DNA of 36,849 bases from a virus. Lineage: Duplodnaviria; Heunggongvirae; Uroviricota; Caudoviricetes. The stretch lies in IMG/VR virus record IMGVR_UViG_3300028912_000018; one strand, written 5' to 3'. Below, in pieces: positions 1,566-36,015 of this stretch. The notes beneath the pieces are model-generated. The model had not been told where the DNA came from and did not search any database. It was given only the letters and a program-made list of their open reading frames with translations. The translations under genes were made by a program, and so were the position numbers. Each line of letters starts with the position of its first letter. Position 1 is the stretch's first letter.

Positions 1566-4500
1566 TTAGTGCTTCCCTTCTATTAAGTCTAACCTAGCTT
1601 TTATTCTTTCTATTTCTCTGCGCTGCCATGCCGCCTCGATATAGAATAAGAGATCAGGTCTGACCCCCCATCTAGATCCTGCTGGCGTTATTTCAACGCG
1701 CTCAATGATGTCTTCCATTACCATCACTGGATTATCATCCTCATCAACAATGATGCTCCCGTCATTATCAGTCAGCGGCATTTCCCTTTGGCCAGTAATG
1801 ACGTCATCATATACTGCGGGATAATCGTCATAGCAAAGAAAGGCATAGCGGCATGTTGTGCTTTCTTCTTCCATGAGTCCGTGAGAAATAAGAACATCAC
1901 GAAGTTGCTGCGCGATTACACCATGATGTATCCTCGCTCCTTCTTCCCCCTTTATAGCGACAGCGTTCAGCCATTTATAAGCGATATACCTGACGTCACC
2001 CCAGGCATCCAGCAATGCTTCGTCAGGAGAGACCGGCTCTGTCTTTAATGTTCCGTCACTGGTAACCACAGGATTGGAGCCAAGATAAACTGTCGAGAAC
2101 CTGTTTCCCGGACCACCAAGAGCATTTACATTATCAAGATAAGGTTTAACATCTCCGTTCTCAAAAAGATGTTCGAGTGCGTTATATACCGCGCGACGTG
2201 GAGTACTGCTTCCGGAACCATGCAACGTTATCATTGCACCATCTGCTGAAGACGTTGTTTCACCTCCGCTAACGATTAATCTCTGAGCGGTAACATCATC
2301 AGACGGTACTTTCTTCGCAATAATGGCGTAATTACCCTCAAGTTTGACTTCCGCGCGAACTTGTCCTGATGTACCTGCATGGACAGTCAGTGACTGGACG
2401 GCAACATCATCTGTGAAATCAACGGGTACAGGAACCGTCCTCACGCCTGACGTCGACATAAAAGTAGGAAGCGTTCTGTTAGGAGTGGCTCCGTAGACAA
2501 AATCCCTTGAAACAAATTCTTCCTGTTTAATTTTCACCCTGAAACAATACAAATCAGCCGGGTGACCATCGTGAACATAAGGATATTTTCTGTTGTTATC
2601 CCCTATGCTCCATGGGTTTAGAAAGTCTTCCCCACCGAAAATGTAGTACAGCCAGTTGTCTTTGATACAAACTGAACCAACACCAACCGCAGAGTTAACT
2701 ATTCCGCCCTGATAAATCTGATCAGTAACATTAACCCACTCTACATTATCCAGACTCCACTCATTGACGTTAACTCTGGTCATAAATGTTCTTGGATAAT
2801 TTCCTGCATAACGGTTATCAGGTTCTCCTCCTTCCCACTCACCAAATGCGCGCTCACTGCCAAAAATAATCAGCTCATCGCCAACTTTGGCAAAAGGAAG
2901 GTTTGAGTGATGAACATTATTTGGGAAGCGAAGAGAATTCCATGATGTACCTAAATCAGAGCTTCTGTGCAATGAACTACCGGGTTGAGTACTTAATGTC
3001 CCCCTGGTCGTCAGATACAGAATGCCATCATAATATTTTACACATGGCTCAGATGCATTCGCCTCATATTCTGCAGGTATGCGTCTGCGAACAAAGCTAC
3101 CAGGAGAACCGAAAGCATCAGAGAAATAGAGTATCCCAAGCTCGCGTGGACCAATATCACCATTATGGTAGCCAACAGCAAAACTGTTATCGCTAATCGT
3201 CGCAAAACTGTGAATCTCAGTAACAGGAGTGCTTCCGTCAACAAAAGAAGGAATAGTTCCAAGACTGGTTTTTCTCCATGGTGACGAGTGAAATGATGTA
3301 CCAAAACTCCAGTATCTACCCTCGTTATTCTGATCCACATCCTGGGTATTTTGCGTCGTAACTGTAAAAGTATTTTTATCAATAACAGTAGTCACCGTCA
3401 TATTCCCGGTAACACCTGTAACACCAGAGTTTGAGAAGTTGACAAAATCACCAGCAAATAATCCGTGATCAGTAATGCGAATATAAGCGACTTGCTGATT
3501 TGCTGCTTTCGTTATACCACCATAAACGCGAAGGCTGCGACTCATTGGGCGATCCCACAACTCTGCAACCTGCAGTTTATTTCCTCTCACGGTCCGCGTC
3601 TCAATTACAGCAAAAAGGCGATTTCTGACAACCCCCATACTCATGCAGTGATAGTTAACTGTGGGATAGTTTTCATGTAAATCTGTAAGCCATTCCGGCG
3701 TTGTCCAGGTCTTCCCGTCATCTCCTGAGCGAACCCATGCAACATGGAGGTTATTTACACCATGGCGGTCTCCAGCCATAAAAGGCGCATAGATGACATT
3801 GTCATATACAAACGTTTTATCCTGCGTCCAGGCGTTGTACCACGGTGTATCTGTAATTTTAAATAACTCTCCCTGGATAAAATCTTCAGAAGCATAAAAA
3901 AGAGGCTGGCCCGGTATTCTCTCAAATAAAAAACGAGCATTTTTAAATCGACTGACATCCGGAAGAGTTGATACTTTAAAAGTAAGCCCTAATCCGTCAA
4001 TTTTATAACCTGGAGATGAGGCTTCAAGGCACGCGCTTATTGCAGTGGAATCGTCATTTATACCATCACCAACAGCTCCAAAATCTTTGGGGCTAATAGC
4101 ATCACGCATTTTATCCTGGAACGTTCGGTACACAGCCCCAGAACCATACTGAATAAACCAACCAAAACCACCAACAACCCCGGCGATTGCAGCATCGACA
4201 TAATTACGCATTGAGCGATTATTTACAGCGTCCTGCTCAAATGATGGATCTGCAAGGTTAGAAATTTTGTTTTGCTTTGCATCGTAATATTTTGCAAGCA
4301 AAGATGGTTTCATCAATGCACGTCTGAACCACCCAAAACATTGCTGGATCAGCATCGTCAGGTAGTCAAAGGCATCTTCATGCACTTCGGGGAAAAATTT
4401 TCCCTGATTGCGAAGGTCTGTGTCCTGCACTACATCAAGCACACGATCTATCGTAATTCGCCATCCAGTAGCAAGCGGAGACGGAAGAACCACAGAACCG

Positions 4501-4688: not shown

Positions 4689-4791
4689 GTTAAATCTCCA
4701 GATAGTCGCAGCACCCGTTGCGCCGCATATCTGGTTATTCTATTACCTGAAAAACCATATATGGATAAAAAGACTATAAATACCAATAGAT

Positions 4792-4808
4792 ATTACCTTT
4801 CGGGTAAT
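4792..4808. promoter_or_regulatory. operator-like 17-bp palindrome ATTACC-TTTCG-GGTAAT
   Basis: perfect inverted repeat; member of a dispersed motif family. Confidence 0.55.
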
Positions 4809-4844
4809 TTGCAAAACGTGCTGGATAGCAAACAAATTATTTGT

Positions 4845-4864
4845 TACTGTATAAACATACAGTT
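4845..4864. promoter_or_regulatory. LexA (SOS) box TACTGTATAAACATACAGTT
   Basis: CTGT-N8-ACAG with AT-rich spacer; 20 nt upstream of the 4884 start codon. Confidence 0.7.
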
Positions 4865-4883
4865 ATTGCATGGAGAAGATAAG

Positions 4884-5141
4884 ATGCAGCAGTATCACTA
4901 TCCACTGGAAGACGGATTTACCGAAAGGATTCACACGCCGGGAGGCGTCAGGTCACTGGTGGAGGGATCGCACTTGATGAAATTACTCCGGGATCTCGAT
5001 AAGGATGGATTTAATGTCGATGGCCCACTTGCCGAACTGACTGCACTGATTAACTACGTCACCAGCTCACAGATGTCTATGCAGGATCTGCAAACACATC
5101 TCGACTATTGTGCCGAACAATTACGAAAACAAACCAGATAA
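4884..5141 (+). CDS. small antirepressor-like protein (stand-alone paralog of the Ant C-terminal domain)
   Basis: 85 aa; GGAG SD 8 nt upstream; roughly 40-45% identity by eye to the C-terminal 75 aa of the 5459-6115 product. Confidence 0.6.
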   Translation: MQQYHYPLEDGFTERIHTPGGVRSLVEGSHLMKLLRDLDKDGFNVDGPLAELTALINYVTSSQMSMQDLQTHLDYCAEQLRKQTR

Positions 5142-5144
5142 GGT

Positions 5145-5188
5145 TTGCAATTACCAAATGGAGTGCTTATATTTACCTTTGCGGTAAA
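5145..5188 (+). promoter_or_regulatory. sigma70-like promoter overlapping operator TTTACC-TTTGC-GGTAAA
   Basis: -35 TTGCAA (5145-5150), 17-nt spacer, -10 TATATT (5168-5173); operator 5172-5188. Confidence 0.5.
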
Positions 5189-5300
5189 TTTACATCGCAC
5201 TCCTCTTGTGCCATAGTAATCGGGCACTGGCAAAATCCAGTGCCGGGATTGGTCTCCCGGATTACTAAGTGGCGCATACCACGCCAGACGTGGTTTTTTT
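5189..5300 (+). ncRNA. candidate small structured RNA or attenuated leader upstream of ant
   Basis: no credible ORF; 8-bp stem hairpin (5223-5244), second hairpin with loop TTGGTC, intrinsic terminator CCACG-loop-CGTGG plus T7 at 5279-5300. Confidence 0.3.
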
Positions 5301-5458
5301 ATGCGTATAGCACAGTCATGCCAGAATTATGGTGGGCTGAATGGGGGTCCGAAAGGACGCCGGTACCACTTAGGCCGGTAAGACCAACTCCGTTCAGTTC
5401 ACCACCATCTGATTGGTCTCAGCGGTGGTGATGTAATTCGCTAAGTGGAGACGCCATC

Positions 5459-6115
5459 ATGAACGCTCAACTCATCCCCGTATTCAACGGCACTATATCT
5501 AACGAAACAGCCCTACTTTGTAATGCCCGCGATCTGCACGCTTTTTTAGGTGTTAAAAAGGTGTTTGCAGCATGGATTACAAATCGCATATCAGAATACG
5601 AATTCATTGAAAATCAAGACTATATTTTGCTTTCCAATTTGGGAAAGCAAACATCTGGTAGAGGCGGCCACAACCGCAAAGAGTACCACCTCACCCTTGA
5701 TACAGCCAAAGAGCTGGCGATGGTCGAGCGTAACGAAAAAGGTCGCCAGGTGCGACGCTACTTCATTGAATGCGAGAAACGTTTAAGACAACAAGAAACA
5801 AAAGTGGAGAAGGTCTTGTCAGGCTTCATGCCCGCCATTATGGAGGCGATCAAGCTGGAAGACAAAAAAGAATACAGCGCCCCACTGAAGCCCGGCTACC
5901 GTAGCCTGATTCATTCGCCGTCTGGTGTTCTCGGCCTGACGGAGAACTCACTGCTGATGAATCTGCTGAACAAGTTACAGGAAGACGGGCACGATGTATC
6001 GGGCGCGGCAGCGGAGCTGACCACCATGTTCTGCTACATCGTCGGTGTGAGCAAATGCCTGCGTGATATCCAGACGCACGCGGAGTACATCAACGACAAG
6101 GCAGGGTTCTTCTGA
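5459..6115 (+). CDS. ant: antirepressor (AntA-type N-terminal domain plus C-terminal domain)
   Basis: 218 aa; N-terminal [35 protein letters not shown] resembles the AntA antirepressor domain; GGAG SD. Confidence 0.7.
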
Positions 6116-6157: not shown

Positions 6158-6202
6158 ATTGCAGACTGTGGGTGAATAGCGTACTATTACCTTAAAGGTA
6201 AA
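6158..6202 (+). promoter_or_regulatory. promoter with overlapping operator ATTACC-TTAAA-GGTAAA
   Basis: -35 TTGCAG, 17-nt spacer, -10 TACTAT; operator 6186-6202 abuts the AGGAGG SD. Confidence 0.45.
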
Positions 6203-23813: not shown

Positions 23814-23851
23814 TTGACATTTAACGCACAAATTATTACCTTTCAGGTAAC
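23814..23851 (+). promoter_or_regulatory. plus-strand promoter (-35 TTGACA) with operator ATTACC-TTTCA-GGTAAC
   Basis: perfect -35; weak -10 overlapping the operator 23835-23851. Confidence 0.4.
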
Positions 23852-24172: not shown

Positions 24173-24249
24173 GTGGCATTAGCTCAGTCGGACAGAGCAA
24201 CCGCCTTCTAAGCGGTTGGTCGCAGGTTCGAATCCTGCATGCCACGCCA
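24173..24249 (+). tRNA. tRNA-Arg (anticodon UCU), with encoded CCA
   Basis: cloverleaf by hand: acceptor GTGGCAT/ATGCCAC, D GCTC/GAGC, anticodon stem ACCGC/GCGGT, loop CTTCTAA, T arm GCAGG-TTCGAAT-CCTGC. Confidence 0.85.
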
Positions 24250-26390: not shown

Positions 26391-26983
26391 TGATTACCAT
26401 CCTGACGTTCTTTGAGTCGCTTCCTGGCTGCTGCTATGCGATCAGCAATTGTCACATTCACATTAACATCCAGACGTTCTTTGAACGCGTTGACATCAAC
26501 ATGCTTACCAATCAGCTCAAGGTTCTTCACCTTGTCAGGCCATTTAATTTTTTTGAGGATTGTCTCTATCGAATCCTCGTTCATGTTCATGATGGTCGAT
26601 GACAGATCAAAGCCACTAAGCGTAGTGCGCCAGATTTTCGGCCACTCGCGGATTGGCTTAAGGCTCCCATCGTCGTTGAGGATGTCGATCACGTCCATCT
26701 GGTCGATCTCCACCAGGCGCATGAGAACGTAATCAGCACTGACGCGCATTCGTTTGTTGCGCTCCTCCATCAACTCGGCAATCCGTTTCTGAATGCGTTC
26801 ATCGCGCATCATGACACTGGCTTTAACTGCCGCTGTATTTGGGGAGAATCCTGCATTAATCGCTGCCTGAGTCTGGTTTTCAGGCGTTTTGATGTATGAC
26901 TGGCAATAAGCCTCCTGCATTGCTGTTAGTGGCTTAAATTGCGTTGATTTGCGTTTATAGGTTTTAGGTTCAGCAGGCATCAT
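26387..26983 (-). CDS. terminase small subunit
   Basis: start placed at ATG-ATG 26983/26980; the 26-aa extension to TTG 27061 is translated operator sequence. Confidence 0.65.
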   Translation of the reverse strand: MMPAEPKTYKRKSTQFKPLTAMQEAYCQSYIKTPENQTQAAINAGFSPNTAAVKASVMMRDERIQKRIAELMEERNKRMRVSADYVLMRLVEIDQMDVIDILNDDGSLKPIREWPKIWRTTLSGFDLSSTIMNMNEDSIETILKKIKWPDKVKNLELIGKHVDVNAFKERLDVNVNVTIADRIAAARKRLKERQDGNQ

Positions 26984-27020
26984 AACCACCGTGGTAATAG
27001 TTACCGTTGTGGTAATAGTA
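26982..27020 (-). promoter_or_regulatory. tandem operator-like sites plus -10 TACTAT before terS
   Basis: GTTACC-GTTGT-GGTAAT (27000-27016) and ATAACC-ACCGT-GGTAAT (26982-26998); minus-strand TACTAT at 27015-27020. Confidence 0.4.
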
Positions 27021-29420: not shown

Positions 29421-29765
29421 TCAGAACTCTTCGATGTTCCAGCCGCCACCTGCTTTCTTTGGTTTAACCGTTACCCCGATTATTCGGAACGGATACTGAT
29501 CTGCGGCGACTTTTGTTTTCACTCTGGCGTCGTCGGTCCAGAAACCTTTCACTTCGTGCAGTTCCATCTCGCCGGTAGCGAGCATCACAGCAAAATCGGG
29601 CGTATAGAACGTGTTGTCAGCTAACCGCAGCTTGATACCCTCGAATCGATACCAAGCGATTTCCCCTGCACGTTTACGCTGCTCAAGGTGCTGGCAATAC
29701 GCAGATTCTGTTTTGTTCATCTGGCCTGTTTTGAGTCGACCAAGAGCCTGTATCTGTTTTCTCAT
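29421..29765 (-). CDS. DUF1064-like protein (putative nuclease)
   Basis: 114 aa; pattern AYCQHLEQRKRAGEIAWYRFEGIKL. Confidence 0.5.
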   Translation of the reverse strand: MRKQIQALGRLKTGQMNKTESAYCQHLEQRKRAGEIAWYRFEGIKLRLADNTFYTPDFAVMLATGEMELHEVKGFWTDDARVKTKVAADQYPFRIIGVTVKPKKAGGGWNIEEF

Positions 29766-29767
29766 GA

Positions 29768-29846
29768 TTTACCTCTGAGGTAATTAAAAACCACATAAGA
29801 CACGAAATCAATAGATTTTAGAATATTTTATTACCCATTAGGTAAT
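29768..29846 (-). promoter_or_regulatory. two operator palindromes with a minus-strand promoter between P and the nin-like block
   Basis: TTTACC-TCTGA-GGTAAT (29768-29784, overlaps SD) and ATTACC-CATTA-GGTAAT (29830-29846). Confidence 0.45.
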
Positions 29847-31731: not shown

Positions 31732-31748
31732 ATTACCTTTGAGGTACG
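31732..31748. promoter_or_regulatory. operator-like site ATTACC-TTTGA-GGTACG (imperfect)
   Basis: between cro and the cII-position gene. Confidence 0.35.
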
Positions 31749-31802: not shown

Positions 31803-32033
31803 TCATGAGTAGAAGAAGTATGCCAGTTCTGCTTTTGAGCGCAGCCATTGTCTTGTTTTACAGGCTTTAAAAAGCCCATTCATCAATACCTTACCTGGCA
31901 TTTTGCGCTTACCTGTTAAGTGAGTCTGGATATAGTGACTCGTCGTTCCGGCTTCCTGTGCGAAGGCTTCACGCTCATCCGGAGTAAGTGCAAGCCAGTG
32001 CTTTTTGAAATCGAAATGTCCGTTATCGCTCAT
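31803..32033 (-). CDS. cro: Cro-like repressor
   Basis: 76 aa; divergent from repressor gene across the operator cluster. Confidence 0.6.
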   Translation of the reverse strand: MSDNGHFDFKKHWLALTPDEREAFAQEAGTTSHYIQTHLTGKRKMPGKVLMNGLFKACKTRQWLRSKAELAYFFYS

Positions 32034-32068
32034 AGCTATTGCCTGATATTTATTTCAGATAATAAATA

Positions 32069-32133
32069 TTCACCCATAAGGTAACAAAAATCAAGGATAG
32101 TTACCTATGGGGTGCATTTACCTGTTGGGTAAT
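32069..32133. promoter_or_regulatory. three-site OR-like operator cluster
   Basis: TTCACC-CATAA-GGTAAC (32069-32085), GTTACC-TATGG-GGTGCA (32100-32116), TTTACC-TGTTG-GGTAAT (32117-32133). Confidence 0.6.
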
Positions 32134-32187: not shown

Positions 32188-32772
32188 ATGAAAAGTATCC
32201 AGGACGTCCGCAGGCAAAATCTCAACGACTTGATCGACCGTGAATTCAATGGTGTTCAGACGCGGATGGCAGAAAAACTTGGAACTCAGGCAAATCTGGT
32301 AAACCGCTGGGCTCTTGGCAAGAAGGTTATCGGCGACCAGGTTGCGCGAAAAATTGAAGCTGCCGCCAATAAACCACGTAACTGGCTTGATATCGATCGC
32401 TCGCTTTCTCAGGAAGGTTTTCAGCCTGTCGGCCCAAGCGACATTGGTCAGCTGGCGGCTCACAACCTGGAACGCTGGATGAGCGAAAGCCGCGACCTTT
32501 CAACACAGGGAAAACTTCACCGCGCATCCGGCGTCGCCCAGGTGACAATCAGCCGCCTGTTAAACAATGAGGTCAGCGTTTCCATTTCCACCCTGGAGAA
32601 TGTTGCATCCGCATTCGGGCGTCACGGATATGAACTACTGATTCACCCGCACGACCCTGCGACTATCAACTATGACCGCTCACGCTACGCATTGTTACCC
32701 GAAACCGAGAAAGCAAAGATCGAAAGTTACATTGAATTTGTCATCAACCAGAACGAAAAAAACAAACAATAA
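32188..32772 (+). CDS. prophage repressor with two HTH-like segments, no S24 peptidase domain
   Basis: 194 aa; HTH-like segments around RMAEKLGTQANLVNRW and ASGVAQVTISRLL; no GDSM/Ser-Lys autocleavage motif. Confidence 0.7.
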   Translation: MKSIQDVRRQNLNDLIDREFNGVQTRMAEKLGTQANLVNRWALGKKVIGDQVARKIEAAANKPRNWLDIDRSLSQEGFQPVGPSDIGQLAAHNLERWMSESRDLSTQGKLHRASGVAQVTISRLLNNEVSVSISTLENVASAFGRHGYELLIHPHDPATINYDRSRYALLPETEKAKIESYIEFVINQNEKNKQ

Positions 32773-32794
32773 AACTATAGTTTTCAGTAAGTAA

Positions 32795-32816
32795 GCCGCC
32801 TCATGGCGGCTTTTTT
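32795..32816 (+). terminator. intrinsic terminator after the repressor gene
   Basis: GCCGCC-TCAT-GGCGGC then TTTTTT. Confidence 0.7.
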
Positions 32817-32828
32817 ATTGCCAGATAG

Positions 32829-32907
32829 ATTACCTTACGGGTAATTTTTTTAACTCATATCTATTGACACCAAACCAAATAAGCATAATTATTACCTCAA
32901 CGGTAAC
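32829..32907 (+). promoter_or_regulatory. pL-like promoter (-35 TTGACA at 32864-32869) flanked by two operators
   Basis: ATTACC-TTACG-GGTAAT (32829-32845) and ATTACC-TCAAC-GGTAAC (32891-32907). Confidence 0.55.
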
Positions 32908-35748: not shown

Positions 35749-36015
35749 ATGAATAAGGTTTCAATGCGCAGTCCGTCAAAGATTGTCGCCGTTACTCCTG
35801 CGGCGATAGAGATCGAAAAACGCGCGATTGAAAGAGAGAAAAAAGGGCAATTCCGCATTGCCGCTCACCTTTGGCTTCAGTGTATGGATGTTGCTTCTGG
35901 TGATGTTGAACGTGCAAGGATCGCGGTTCGCAGGGACCAATGTATCACAAAAGGTAACGGCCTTCGCCGTGGCGACTATAGCGGCATAGGATGTTGCGGG
36001 GTGGTTTATGACTAA
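35749..36015 (+). CDS. PerC-like small regulator (start uncertain, 35749 or 35764)
   Basis: pattern EKKGQFRIAAHLWLQCMDV...ARIAVRRDQC resembles PerC-family activators. Confidence 0.4.
   Translation: MNKVSMRSPSKIVAVTPAAIEIEKRAIEREKKGQFRIAAHLWLQCMDVASGDVERARIAVRRDQCITKGNGLRRGDYSGIGCCGVVYD

What the first reader, a model, noticed from the sequence alone, without database searches (positions are those of the whole stretch)
32188..32772. Repressor with tandem HTH segments and no autocleavage domain
The protein divergent from cro has two HTH-like segments and no recognisable S24 peptidase motif. It therefore looks non-cleavable, which points to antirepressor-mediated induction, as established for Salmonella Gifsy prophages. 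Two DNA-binding units in one chain could each read one half of the ATTACC-N5-GGTAAT palindrome.
Basis: inference. Interest (0 to 1): 0.5.

Follow-up and report, generated by a model that had tools for sequence, protein, structure and literature searches.

The report
Known non-cleavable phage repressor (Rep)
This gene encodes the already characterised lysogeny repressor of epsilon15/phiV10-like phages, which is switched off by a small SOS-controlled antirepressor rather than by self-cleavage, so the finding is correct in outline but not new.

Summary
The ORF at 32188-32772 (+, 194 aa) is real. It is 100% identical to the repressor of Escherichia phages phiV10 and vB_EcoP_ZX5; in ZX5, overexpression shut down lytic growth. 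It matches the Salmonella phage SPC32H Rep over its full length (PDB 5D50/5D4Z, E=4e-42, 42% identity), a protein solved in complex with its antirepressor Ant. The window also encodes an Ant orthologue (4884-5141, 87% identical) behind a near-consensus LexA box, and a second protein (5459-6115) with an Ant-like C-terminal domain. So the reading of a non-cleavable repressor induced through an antirepressor is supported. The direct precedent is SPC32H, in the same genus, not Gifsy.

The idea that the two HTH units of one chain each read one half of the palindrome is not supported. The half-sites are identical. The basic, better conserved N-terminal domain is the DNA reader in SPC32H. A Pseudomonas phage cI with the same N-domain fused to S24 has TTACC-N4-GGTAA operators. 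The C-terminal HTH-like domain is the tetramerisation and Ant-docking module.

Verdict: already known, low interest. Side observations: at least 12 conserved operator sites, and an isrK/C4-RNA-controlled second antirepressor.

The parts
32188..32772 (+). rep: non-cleavable lysogeny repressor, 194 aa (stop codon included)
   Evidence: ORF. 100% identical to the ZX5 ORF21 repressor and to phiV10. Matches 5d50_A at E=4e-42 over aa 1-190. Foldseek top hits are 5d50 and 5d4z.
32188..32397 (+). Rep N-terminal HTH domain (aa 1-70), the inferred operator-reading domain
   Evidence: YdaS/Cro-type HTH at aa 21-61. Helices at aa 4-59 with pLDDT 85-92. 54% identical to SPC32H, net charge +4, NLVNRW conserved in 4 phages. 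A homologous N-domain occurs in the S24-type cI of PseuP_224, which has TTACC-type operators.
32440..32769 (+). Rep C-terminal HTH_3-like domain plus terminal helix (aa 85-194), the inferred tetramerisation and Ant-docking module
   Evidence: Pfam HTH_3 at aa 106-147. Matches 5d4z_A (Rep CTD crystal) at E=4e-20. Net charge -2, 36% identical to SPC32H.
32070..32084 (.). Operator-like site in the cro-rep intergenic region (TCACC-N5-GGTAA). It lies inside the spacer of the leftward promoter TTGTTA-17-TATTAT (32087..32059).
32101..32115 (.). Degenerate operator-like site (TTACC-N5-GGTGC). The same position is occupied by an operator in SPC32H, BUCT711 and Tyrion.
   Evidence: Sequence; comparison.
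32118..32132 (.). Perfect operator TTACC-N5-GGTAA, 17 bp centre-to-centre from the previous site
31803..32033 (-). Divergent cro-position gene (76 aa), first gene of the leftward early/replication operon
   Evidence: phrog_35 E=5.6e-13. No Pfam or PDB match.
32793..32812 (+). Intrinsic terminator after rep
32830..32906 (+). Rightward early promoter (TTGACA-17-AATTAT, 32864-32892) bracketed by two operators (32830-32844 and 32892-32906) 62 bp apart. It drives the exo/recT operon.
   Evidence: The same layout occurs in SPC32H, BUCT711 and Tyrion.
4884..5141 (+). ant: small antirepressor, 85 aa
   Evidence: Matches 5d50_E 'Anti-repressor protein' at E=4e-47. 87% identical to SPC32H Ant.
4845..4864 (.). 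LexA box TACTGTATAAACATACAGTT, 20 nt upstream of the ant start codon
   Evidence: The same box sits at the same place in SPC32H.
4793..4807 (.). Rep-type operator upstream of the ant LexA box
   Evidence: Conserved in SPC32H.
5173..5187 (.). Rep-type operator abutting the -35 of promoter TTTACA-17-CATAGT (5189-5217)
5224..5300 (+). isrK-like sRNA with its terminator
   Evidence: Rfam RF01394, 67.7 bits against a gathering score of 50. Terminator at 5278-5294.
5325..5409 (+). C4-type antisense RNA. Its loops are complementary to 5413-5419 and to 5441-5448 (the RBS of the 5459 gene).
   Evidence: Rfam RF01695, 61.2 bits against a gathering score of 45. Complementarity.
5459..6115 (+). Second, chimeric antirepressor candidate: AntA N-terminal domain plus an Ant-like C-terminal domain
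   Evidence: Pfam AntA E=4e-26 at aa 22-92. aa 137-213 match 5d50_E at E=6.5e-14. Residues 97-218 align at 74% identity, and the last ~80 residues differ at one position, with the ZX5 ORF4 anti-repressor that was tested by overexpression.
29769..29845 (-). Second operator pair, again 62 bp apart (29769-29783 and 29831-29845), bracketing a TCTATTGA-type promoter-like module upstream of the gene 29421..29765 (-)
   Evidence: An equivalent pair occurs in SPC32H at 35972/36034.
26983..27015 (.). Operator-like sites (27001-27015 perfect, 26983-26997 with 1 mismatch) just upstream of the probable small-terminase start
   Evidence: SPC32H has a site at position 12, upstream of its small-terminase gene.
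23836..23850 (.). Operator-like site between the tRNA-Arg gene and the head-gene block
   Evidence: The equivalent SPC32H site is at 3175.
6187..6201 (.). Operator-like site downstream of the second antirepressor gene
31733..31747 (.). Operator-like site (1 mismatch) next to the terminator after the cro-position gene

Best explanation
The gene encodes the Rep lysogeny repressor of a phiV10/epsilon15-like (Uetakevirus) prophage, an orthologue of the structurally characterised Rep of Salmonella phage SPC32H.

Mechanism:
1. The basic N-terminal HTH domain reads TTACC-N5-GGTAA palindromes as symmetric pairs of N-domains from different chains.
2. The C-terminal domain has an XRE/HTH_3-like helical fold plus a long terminal helix, but it serves as the oligomerisation (dimer-to-tetramer) and antirepressor-docking module, not as a second operator reader.
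3. Rep occupies three sites between rep and the divergent cro-position gene, and pairs of sites 62 bp apart that bracket the other early promoters. This silences lytic transcription.
4. Rep has no S24 domain and is not cleaved. On DNA damage, LexA leaves the box in front of ant. The 85-aa Ant is made, binds the Rep C-domains, captures the N-domains, breaks up the DNA-binding tetramer and releases the operators.
5. A second Ant-domain protein (5459-6115), behind isrK-like and C4-like RNAs, probably gives a second, RNA-gated route to the same Rep.

Status of each step. Shown here: homology, domain architecture, absence of S24, operator enrichment and conserved placement, and the Ant orthologue with its LexA box. 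Shown by others for the identical protein: repression of lytic genes on overexpression. Shown by others for the 42%-identical SPC32H protein: tetramer, N-domain DNA binding, Ant complex and non-cleavage. Inferred: transfer of these properties to this protein, Rep control of the ant promoters, and the role of the second Ant.
For: - Full-length match to 5d50_A 'Repressor' (E=4e-42), and of aa 89-190 to 5d4z_A (E=4e-20).
- Foldseek top hits are 'Rep-Ant complex from Salmonella-temperate phage' and 'Repressor from Salmonella-temperate phage'.
- 100% identical to the repressor of ZX5 and phiV10, and 41.8% identical to the SPC32H rep gene product.
- ZX5 ORF21 overexpression abolished free phage and cut endolysin and holin transcripts by more than 99.9% (PMC9782041).
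- No S24 match, and the model is all-helical.
- 14 operator-type sites against 0.5 expected. They have the same motif and the same placement in SPC32H, Klebsiella phage BUCT711 and Enterobacter phage Tyrion.
- The N-domain is more conserved and basic; the C-domain is acidic.
- PseuP_224 cI has the same N-domain fused to S24, with TTACC-N4-GGTAA sites upstream.
- The Ant orthologue matches at E=4e-47 and lies behind a LexA box conserved with SPC32H.
- The second Ant-domain protein has a C-terminal module almost identical to that of the ZX5 ORF4 anti-repressor, whose overexpression lowered prophage titre about 1000-fold.
- A secondary account of the SPC32H mechanism (Rep tetramer binds DNA; the N-domain pairs come from different dimers; the Ant tetramer binds two Rep dimers) is in PMC9638917 and in bioRxiv 10.1101/2025.11.27.690993.
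Against: - No experiment on this exact protein shows tetramerisation, Ant binding or resistance to RecA-stimulated cleavage. The two primary SPC32H papers could not be read here, so details of that mechanism rest on secondary citations and my memory.
- The Rep C-domain is only 36% identical to SPC32H while Ant is 87% identical, so the interface cannot simply be assumed to be the same.
- Pfam scores the C-domain as a better HTH_3 than the N-domain, so some residual DNA contact by the C-domain is not excluded.
- Rep's own promoter was not located.
Confidence: 0.9

Rival explanations
1. One reading: one Rep chain binds one palindrome on its own, with the N-terminal HTH reading one half-site and the C-terminal HTH reading the other.
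For: Two HTH-type domains do exist in one chain, joined by a flexible linker of about 15-25 residues. The C-domain is a bona fide HTH_3 match (E=1.2e-9).
Against: The half-sites are identical inverted repeats, but the two domains show no detectable similarity, so they would not be expected to share one specificity. The C-domain is net acidic and poorly conserved, although the operator motif is identical in four phages. The C-domain alone crystallised as the oligomerisation module and is the part bound by Ant (5D4Z/5D50). An S24-type cI with only the homologous N-domain has the same half-sites.
Confidence: 0.04
2. The C-terminal HTH-like domain keeps an auxiliary DNA-binding role (non-specific DNA, or a second class of site) in addition to oligomerisation, so that Rep bridges or loops DNA through both domain types.
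For: The HTH_3 signature is retained. R123 in the would-be recognition helix is invariant among 37 homologues. There are many operator sites, and the paired sites are 62 bp apart.
Against: The C-domain is net negative. No second enriched motif was looked for or seen. Published descriptions assign DNA binding to the N-domains only.
Confidence: 0.08
3. The protein is not the lysogeny repressor but an antitoxin-like or other XRE regulator (HigA/VapI-like or RstR-like), as some database records name it.
For: One phage record annotates it as 'plasmid maintenance system antidote protein VapI' (H33). There are weak NCBIfam hits to HigA (E=0.0012) and RstR (E=7.7e-4).
Against: Both hits fall far below the curated cut-offs. 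There is no adjacent toxin gene. The gene sits in the classic immunity position, between divergent early promoters that carry its operator motif. Overexpression of the identical protein blocks lytic growth.
Confidence: 0.02

Closest known systems
Rep repressor of Salmonella phage SPC32H (PDB 5D50, 5D4Z; Kim & Ryu 2013 J Virol; Kim et al. 2016 PNAS)
   Same: Full-length homologue (E=4e-42, 42% identity) with the same two-domain all-helical architecture and no S24 domain. Same genus and the same gene position. The same TTACC-N5-GGTAA operators occur in the same arrangement. There is a cognate small Ant (87% identical) behind a LexA box.
   Different: The C-terminal domain is only 36% identical. 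This phage group also carries a second Ant-domain protein with isrK/C4-type RNAs, which SPC32H lacks at that locus. Tetramerisation and Ant binding have not been tested for this protein.
ORF21 repressor of Escherichia phage vB_EcoP_ZX5, identical to ORF40 of phiV10 (Li et al. 2022, PMC9782041)
   Same: 100% identical protein. Overexpression represses the lytic genes.
   Different: None at the protein level. That paper did not connect the protein to the SPC32H structure ('SPC32H' occurs 0 times in its text) and treated the C-terminal HTH as the DNA-binding domain.
Gifsy-1/Gifsy-3 repressor-antirepressor induction
   Same: The logic is the same: a non-cleavable repressor inactivated by a LexA-controlled antirepressor. 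The isrK-small ORF-antirepressor arrangement of Gifsy-1 (PMC4825925) resembles the layout at 5224-6115 here.
   Different: No sequence relationship between Rep and the Gifsy repressors was tested or seen here. The small Ant fold is specific to the SPC32H type.
Lambda CI / LexA-type S24 repressors (for example Pseudomonas phage PseuP_224 cI)
   Same: Immunity-region position. The N-terminal HTH domain is homologous to that of PseuP_224 cI (39% over aa 4-68), and the operators have similar half-sites.
   Different: There is no Peptidase_S24 domain. The C-terminal half is replaced by a helical HTH_3-like module.
P1/P7 immI (c4 antisense RNA controlling icd-ant) and P22 immI
   Same: A C4-family RNA lies directly upstream of an antirepressor gene, with two loops complementary to the downstream leader and RBS.
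   Different: This concerns only the second antirepressor, not Rep itself. P1 C1 and P22 C2 are unrelated repressors.

Membership tests
SPC32H-type Rep (non-cleavable Uetakevirus repressor) | Full-length sequence homology to SPC32H Rep, both domains | tested here: met
   5d50_A E=4e-42 over aa 1-190; 5d4z_A E=4e-20; tblastn 41.8% identity over 98% of the query.
SPC32H-type Rep (non-cleavable Uetakevirus repressor) | Two all-helical domains (N-terminal HTH, C-terminal helical module with a terminal helix) and no S24 peptidase domain | tested here: met
   Pfam and NCBIfam; AF2 secondary structure; Foldseek top hits 5d50/5d4z.
SPC32H-type Rep (non-cleavable Uetakevirus repressor) | Cognate small Ant antirepressor in the same genome under LexA control | tested here: met
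   The 4884-5141 product matches 5d50_E at E=4e-47. A LexA box at 4845-4864 is conserved with SPC32H.
SPC32H-type Rep (non-cleavable Uetakevirus repressor) | Same operator motif and operator/promoter layout in the immunity region | tested here: met
   TTACC-N5-GGTAA sites at equivalent positions in the window, SPC32H, BUCT711 and Tyrion.
SPC32H-type Rep (non-cleavable Uetakevirus repressor) | Concentration-dependent dimer-tetramer assembly, with DNA bound by the tetramer through N-domain pairs from different dimers | not testable with these tools
   Known for SPC32H only (PMC9638917). Testing it here needs SEC-MALS, EMSA or a multimer model.
SPC32H-type Rep (non-cleavable Uetakevirus repressor) | Not cleaved on SOS induction; released from DNA by Ant binding | not testable with these tools
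   This needs a Western blot after mitomycin C and an Ant/Rep EMSA. Indirect support: overexpression of the related ZX5 anti-repressor lowers lysogeny.
LexA/lambda-CI-type autocleavable repressors | C-terminal Peptidase_S24 domain with a Ser-Lys dyad | tested here: not met
   No S24 hit at E<=1. There are no beta strands in the model. As a positive control, PseuP_224 cI gives S24 at E=2.6e-22.
HigA/VapI antitoxins | Score above the curated family cut-off and an adjacent toxin gene | tested here: not met
   TIGR02607 scores 18.7 bits against a cut-off of 47.7. The neighbours are the cro-position gene and the recombination genes.

The most novel reading that the evidence does not exclude
Rep may act as a genome-wide repressor rather than a lambda-like two-promoter repressor. 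At least 12 TTACC-N5-GGTAA sites sit at positions conserved between this phage and SPC32H. These include pairs exactly 62 bp apart that bracket promoters, sites in front of the terminase and head operons, and sites at both antirepressor promoters. Rep would then co-repress its own antagonists (ant together with LexA; the isrK/C4/ant2 unit alone). Loss of Rep would feed forward into more antirepressor, and a second, chimeric antirepressor (AntA or Bro-N head, Ant tail) gated by a C4-type antisense RNA would add an SOS-independent input. I could not establish whether any of this is already described in the two SPC32H papers, which were not readable here.
Probability: 0.45. Interest if true: 0.35.

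Novelty: already known. Interest (0 to 1): 0.14.

Why it matters
Little is at stake for the repressor itself, because the protein, its role and its mode of inactivation are already in the literature and the PDB. The useful result is a correction. The stronger Pfam HTH match lies in the C-terminal domain, which is most likely a protein-protein module (tetramerisation and antirepressor docking). The weaker-scoring N-terminal HTH most likely reads the operator. This matters for anyone annotating or engineering phiV10-type reporter or therapeutic phages, for example when making them obligately lytic or SOS-independent. The side observations give concrete, testable extensions of the SPC32H model. 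These are the conserved multi-site operator map, Rep sites at the antirepressor promoters, and the second RNA-gated antirepressor with exchangeable N-terminal heads.

Tried and rejected
- I tried to read the two primary SPC32H papers (PNAS 2016 by DOI and by PMC4983836; J Virol 2013 by PMC3807360). None is held, so I used secondary descriptions, PDB titles and my own recollection, marked as such.
- I tested whether the two domains arose by tandem duplication. BLASTP of the N-domain against the C-domain gave no alignment at E<=100, so this was rejected.
- I looked for S24 or any other cleavage domain in Pfam at E<=1 and in NCBIfam, and found none.
- I considered the HigA/VapI antitoxin and RstR labels. 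Both hits are far below their cut-offs, so both were rejected.
- The cro-position protein has no Pfam or PDB match. Only a PHROG match supports a regulator role, so calling it 'cro' rests on position.
- I could not place Rep's own promoter or the ant promoter with confidence. The consensus scan found nothing convincing for either, so I give only the relative positions of the operator and the LexA box.
- One literature search failed on a term that was too short.

Full report
**Observation.** The ORF at 32188..32772 on the + strand (ATG start, 194 aa) exists exactly as described. It is divergent from a 76-aa gene at 31803..32033 (-). That gene heads the leftward block containing a DnaT-like and a lambda-P-like replication gene. 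It matches only a PHROG 'transcriptional repressor' family (phrog_35, E=5.6e-13), so 'cro' is a positional label.

Two HTH-type segments are present.
- Pfam HTH_3 hits with E=1.2e-9 and two stretches, the best at aa 106-147. A YdaS/Cro-type HTH is seen at aa 21-61 (E=3e-4, below the gathering score).
- Separate PHROG repressor families match the N-terminal part only and the C-terminal part only.
- No Peptidase_S24 hit appears even at E<=1, and none in NCBIfam.
- An AlphaFold2 model built on 37 homologues (mean pLDDT 77) shows two helical bundles (aa 4-59 and aa 85-151), a disordered linker (aa 74-82) and a long terminal helix (aa 172-193). It has no beta strands.

**What it is.** The window is an epsilon15/phiV10-like podophage (genus Uetakevirus). 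The immunity region is 97-99% identical at the DNA level to phages Phi05_1387 B, HEMP4, vB_EcoP_ZX5, TL-2011b and phiV10.

The protein is 100% identical to the annotated repressors of ZX5 (QTH80031.1), phiV10, phiv142-3 and others, and 41.8% identical to the gene named rep in Salmonella phage SPC32H. Against the PDB it matches 5d50_A 'Repressor' over its whole length (E=4e-42) and 5d4z_A, the C-terminal fragment, at E=4e-20. A Foldseek search with the model returns the same entries first: 'Crystal structure of Rep-Ant complex from Salmonella-temperate phage' and 'Crystal structure of Repressor from Salmonella-temperate phage'.

For the identical ZX5 protein (ORF21), overexpression eliminated free phage and reduced endolysin and holin transcripts by 99.99% and 99.97% (PMC9782041).

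**The antirepressors.** The 85-aa product matches the crystallised SPC32H antirepressor (5d50_E) at E=4e-47 and is 87% identical to it. Twenty nucleotides upstream of its start lies TACTGTATAAACATACAGTT (4845-4864), a near-consensus LexA box. The same box is at the same place in SPC32H.

From my own knowledge of Kim & Ryu 2013 (J Virol 87:11775; not readable here):
- SPC32H Rep is not cleaved during the SOS response.
- Ant is LexA-repressed.
- A point mutation in that box makes the variant SPC32N constitutively lytic.

It has an AntA domain at aa 22-92 (E=4e-26) and an Ant-like domain at aa 137-213 (5d50_E, E=6.5e-14). Its C-terminal module is almost identical to that of ZX5 ORF4: residues 97-218 align at 74% identity, and the last ~80 residues differ at one position. 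ZX5 ORF4 has a Bro-N head instead, and its overexpression lowered the prophage titre from 10^9 to 10^6.

**Operators, and which domain reads them.** TTACC-N5-GGTAA (up to 1 mismatch) occurs 14 times against 0.5 expected. Nearly all sites are intergenic.
- Three sites lie between rep and the cro-position gene (32070, 32101 degenerate, 32118). The first falls inside the spacer of a leftward promoter, TTGTTA-17-TATTAT.
- Downstream of the rep terminator, a strong rightward promoter (TTGACA-17-AATTAT) is bracketed by sites at 32830 and 32892, 62 bp apart.
- A second pair, again 62 bp apart (29769 and 29831), brackets a very similar module on the other strand.
- Further sites lie before ant (4793), before the isrK-like RNA (5173), after the second ant gene (6187), before the probable small-terminase start (26983/27001), near the tRNA and head genes (23836), and after the cro-position gene (31733).

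SPC32H, Klebsiella phage BUCT711 and Enterobacter phage Tyrion have the same motif in the same immunity-region layout. The whole-genome map of SPC32H has counterparts for the ant, terminase, head and post-replication sites, including two 62-bp pairs.

Four observations assign the motif to the N-domain acting as a symmetric pair, not to the N- and C-domains of one chain.
1. The half-sites are identical inverted repeats, whereas the two domains have no detectable similarity.
2. The N-domain is net +4 and 54% identical to SPC32H, with NLVNRW invariant in all four phages. The C-domain is net -2 to -4 and 36% identical.
3. Secondary accounts of the SPC32H work state that Rep binds DNA as a tetramer, with the N-domain pairs drawn from different dimers, and that the Ant tetramer binds two Rep dimers and breaks the tetramer (PMC9638917).
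4. Pseudomonas phage PseuP_224 cI has a homologous N-domain (39% over aa 4-68) fused to a genuine S24 domain (E=2.6e-22). It carries ATTACC-N4-GGTAAT-type sites just upstream. The half-site therefore travels with the N-domain, whatever the C-terminal half is.

**Mechanism.**
1. Rep tetramers, held together by the C-terminal HTH_3-like module and terminal helix, place pairs of N-domains on TTACC-N5-GGTAA operators at the early promoters, and probably at the late and antirepressor promoters too.
2. Because Rep lacks S24, it is not cleaved.
3. DNA damage removes LexA from the ant leader. Ant accumulates, binds the Rep C-domains, sequesters the N-domains and dissociates the DNA-binding tetramer, so lytic transcription starts.
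4. If the sites at 4793 and 5173 are functional, loss of Rep would further raise transcription of ant and of the isrK/C4/ant2 unit, giving positive feedback.

What is shown here: homology, architecture, absence of S24, motif enrichment and conserved placement, and the Ant/LexA-box module. What others have shown: repression by the identical protein, and oligomeric state, Ant complex and non-cleavage for the 42%-identical SPC32H Rep. Transfer of the latter properties to this protein is inference, though a strong one. I give this explanation a confidence of 0.9.

**Comparison and membership.** The protein meets every testable defining feature of the SPC32H-type Rep family: full-length homology, two-domain helical architecture without S24, a cognate LexA-controlled Ant, and the same operators and layout. 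Tetramerisation, Ant-mediated release and non-cleavage cannot be tested with these tools.
- It fails the LexA/CI family test, since it has no S24 domain.
- It fails the HigA test: 18.7 bits against a cut-off of 47.7, and no adjacent toxin gene.

**Verdict.** The system is already known, with an identical protein in GenBank that has been functionally tested and a homologue solved with its antirepressor. Interest is low (0.14).

The most novel reading that the evidence does not exclude concerns the conserved genome-wide operator map, with 62-bp promoter-bracketing pairs and Rep sites at the antirepressor promoters, and the second, RNA-gated, head-swappable antirepressor. I could not check whether the primary SPC32H papers already describe the operator map.

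Noticed in passing
window 5224-5300, 5325-5409, 5459-6115: An isrK-family sRNA (67.7 bits) and a C4-family antisense RNA (61.2 bits) lie between ant and the second antirepressor gene. The order matches the Gifsy-1 isrK-orf45-anrP locus (PMC4825925). Two predicted C4 loops (5366-5373 and 5381-5387) are complementary to 5441-5448, which overlaps the RBS of the 5459 gene, and to 5413-5419. This is the logic of P1 c4 and icd-ant. A 37-codon ORF (5319-5431) overlaps the C4 RNA. ZX5 annotates a 114-nt 'ash family protein' CDS immediately upstream of its anti-repressor gene, at about the same relative position.
   Followed up: partly
window 5459-6115; L006 1368-2063 (ZX5); phiV10/TL-2011b hits: In otherwise near-identical phages, the second antirepressor keeps an almost identical Ant-like C-terminal module but has different N-terminal heads. 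This window and phiv142-3 have AntA, whose DNA is about 91% identical to antirepressor genes of Stx phages. ZX5, phiV10 and TL-2011b have Bro-N. This looks like modular head swapping on a fixed repressor-binding tail.
   Followed up: partly
window 4793, 5173, 6187, 23836, 26983/27001, 29769, 29831, 31733, 32070, 32101, 32118, 32830, 32892; L005 (SPC32H) sites: Rep-type operators are spread over the whole genome at positions conserved with SPC32H, including upstream of the small-terminase gene and of the head genes. Two pairs are exactly 62 bp apart (about six helical turns), each bracketing a TCTATTGA(C/T)-type -35 region. SPC32H also has two 62-bp pairs. This suggests that one Rep tetramer clamps both sides of a promoter.
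   Followed up: partly
window 4884-5141 vs 32440-32769: Ant is 87% identical to SPC32H Ant, whereas the Rep C-terminal domain it should dock on is only 36% identical (the N-domain is 54%). This asymmetry is unexpected for an interacting pair. It suggests either a small conserved interface or an additional constraint on Ant.
   Followed up: no
L009 1495-2232 and 1400-1494 (Pseudomonas phage PseuP_224): An S24-type cI repressor shares the Rep N-terminal domain (39% identity) and has three TTACC/GGTAA-type palindromes with a 4-nt instead of a 5-nt spacer just upstream. This is evidence that the cleavable and non-cleavable repressors exchanged C-terminal halves on a common DNA-reading head.
   Followed up: partly
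window 24173-24249 (+): A tRNA-Arg(tct) gene lies on the strand opposite to the surrounding packaging and structural genes, as in SPC32H. phiv142-3 annotates its tRNA-Arg on the other strand.
   Followed up: no
window 4761-5141: The mechanical ORF list extends ant to a 126-aa ORF starting at 4761. That ORF would read through the Rep-type operator and the LexA box. The homologous crystallised protein and the phage annotations show that the real start is 4884.
   Followed up: yes
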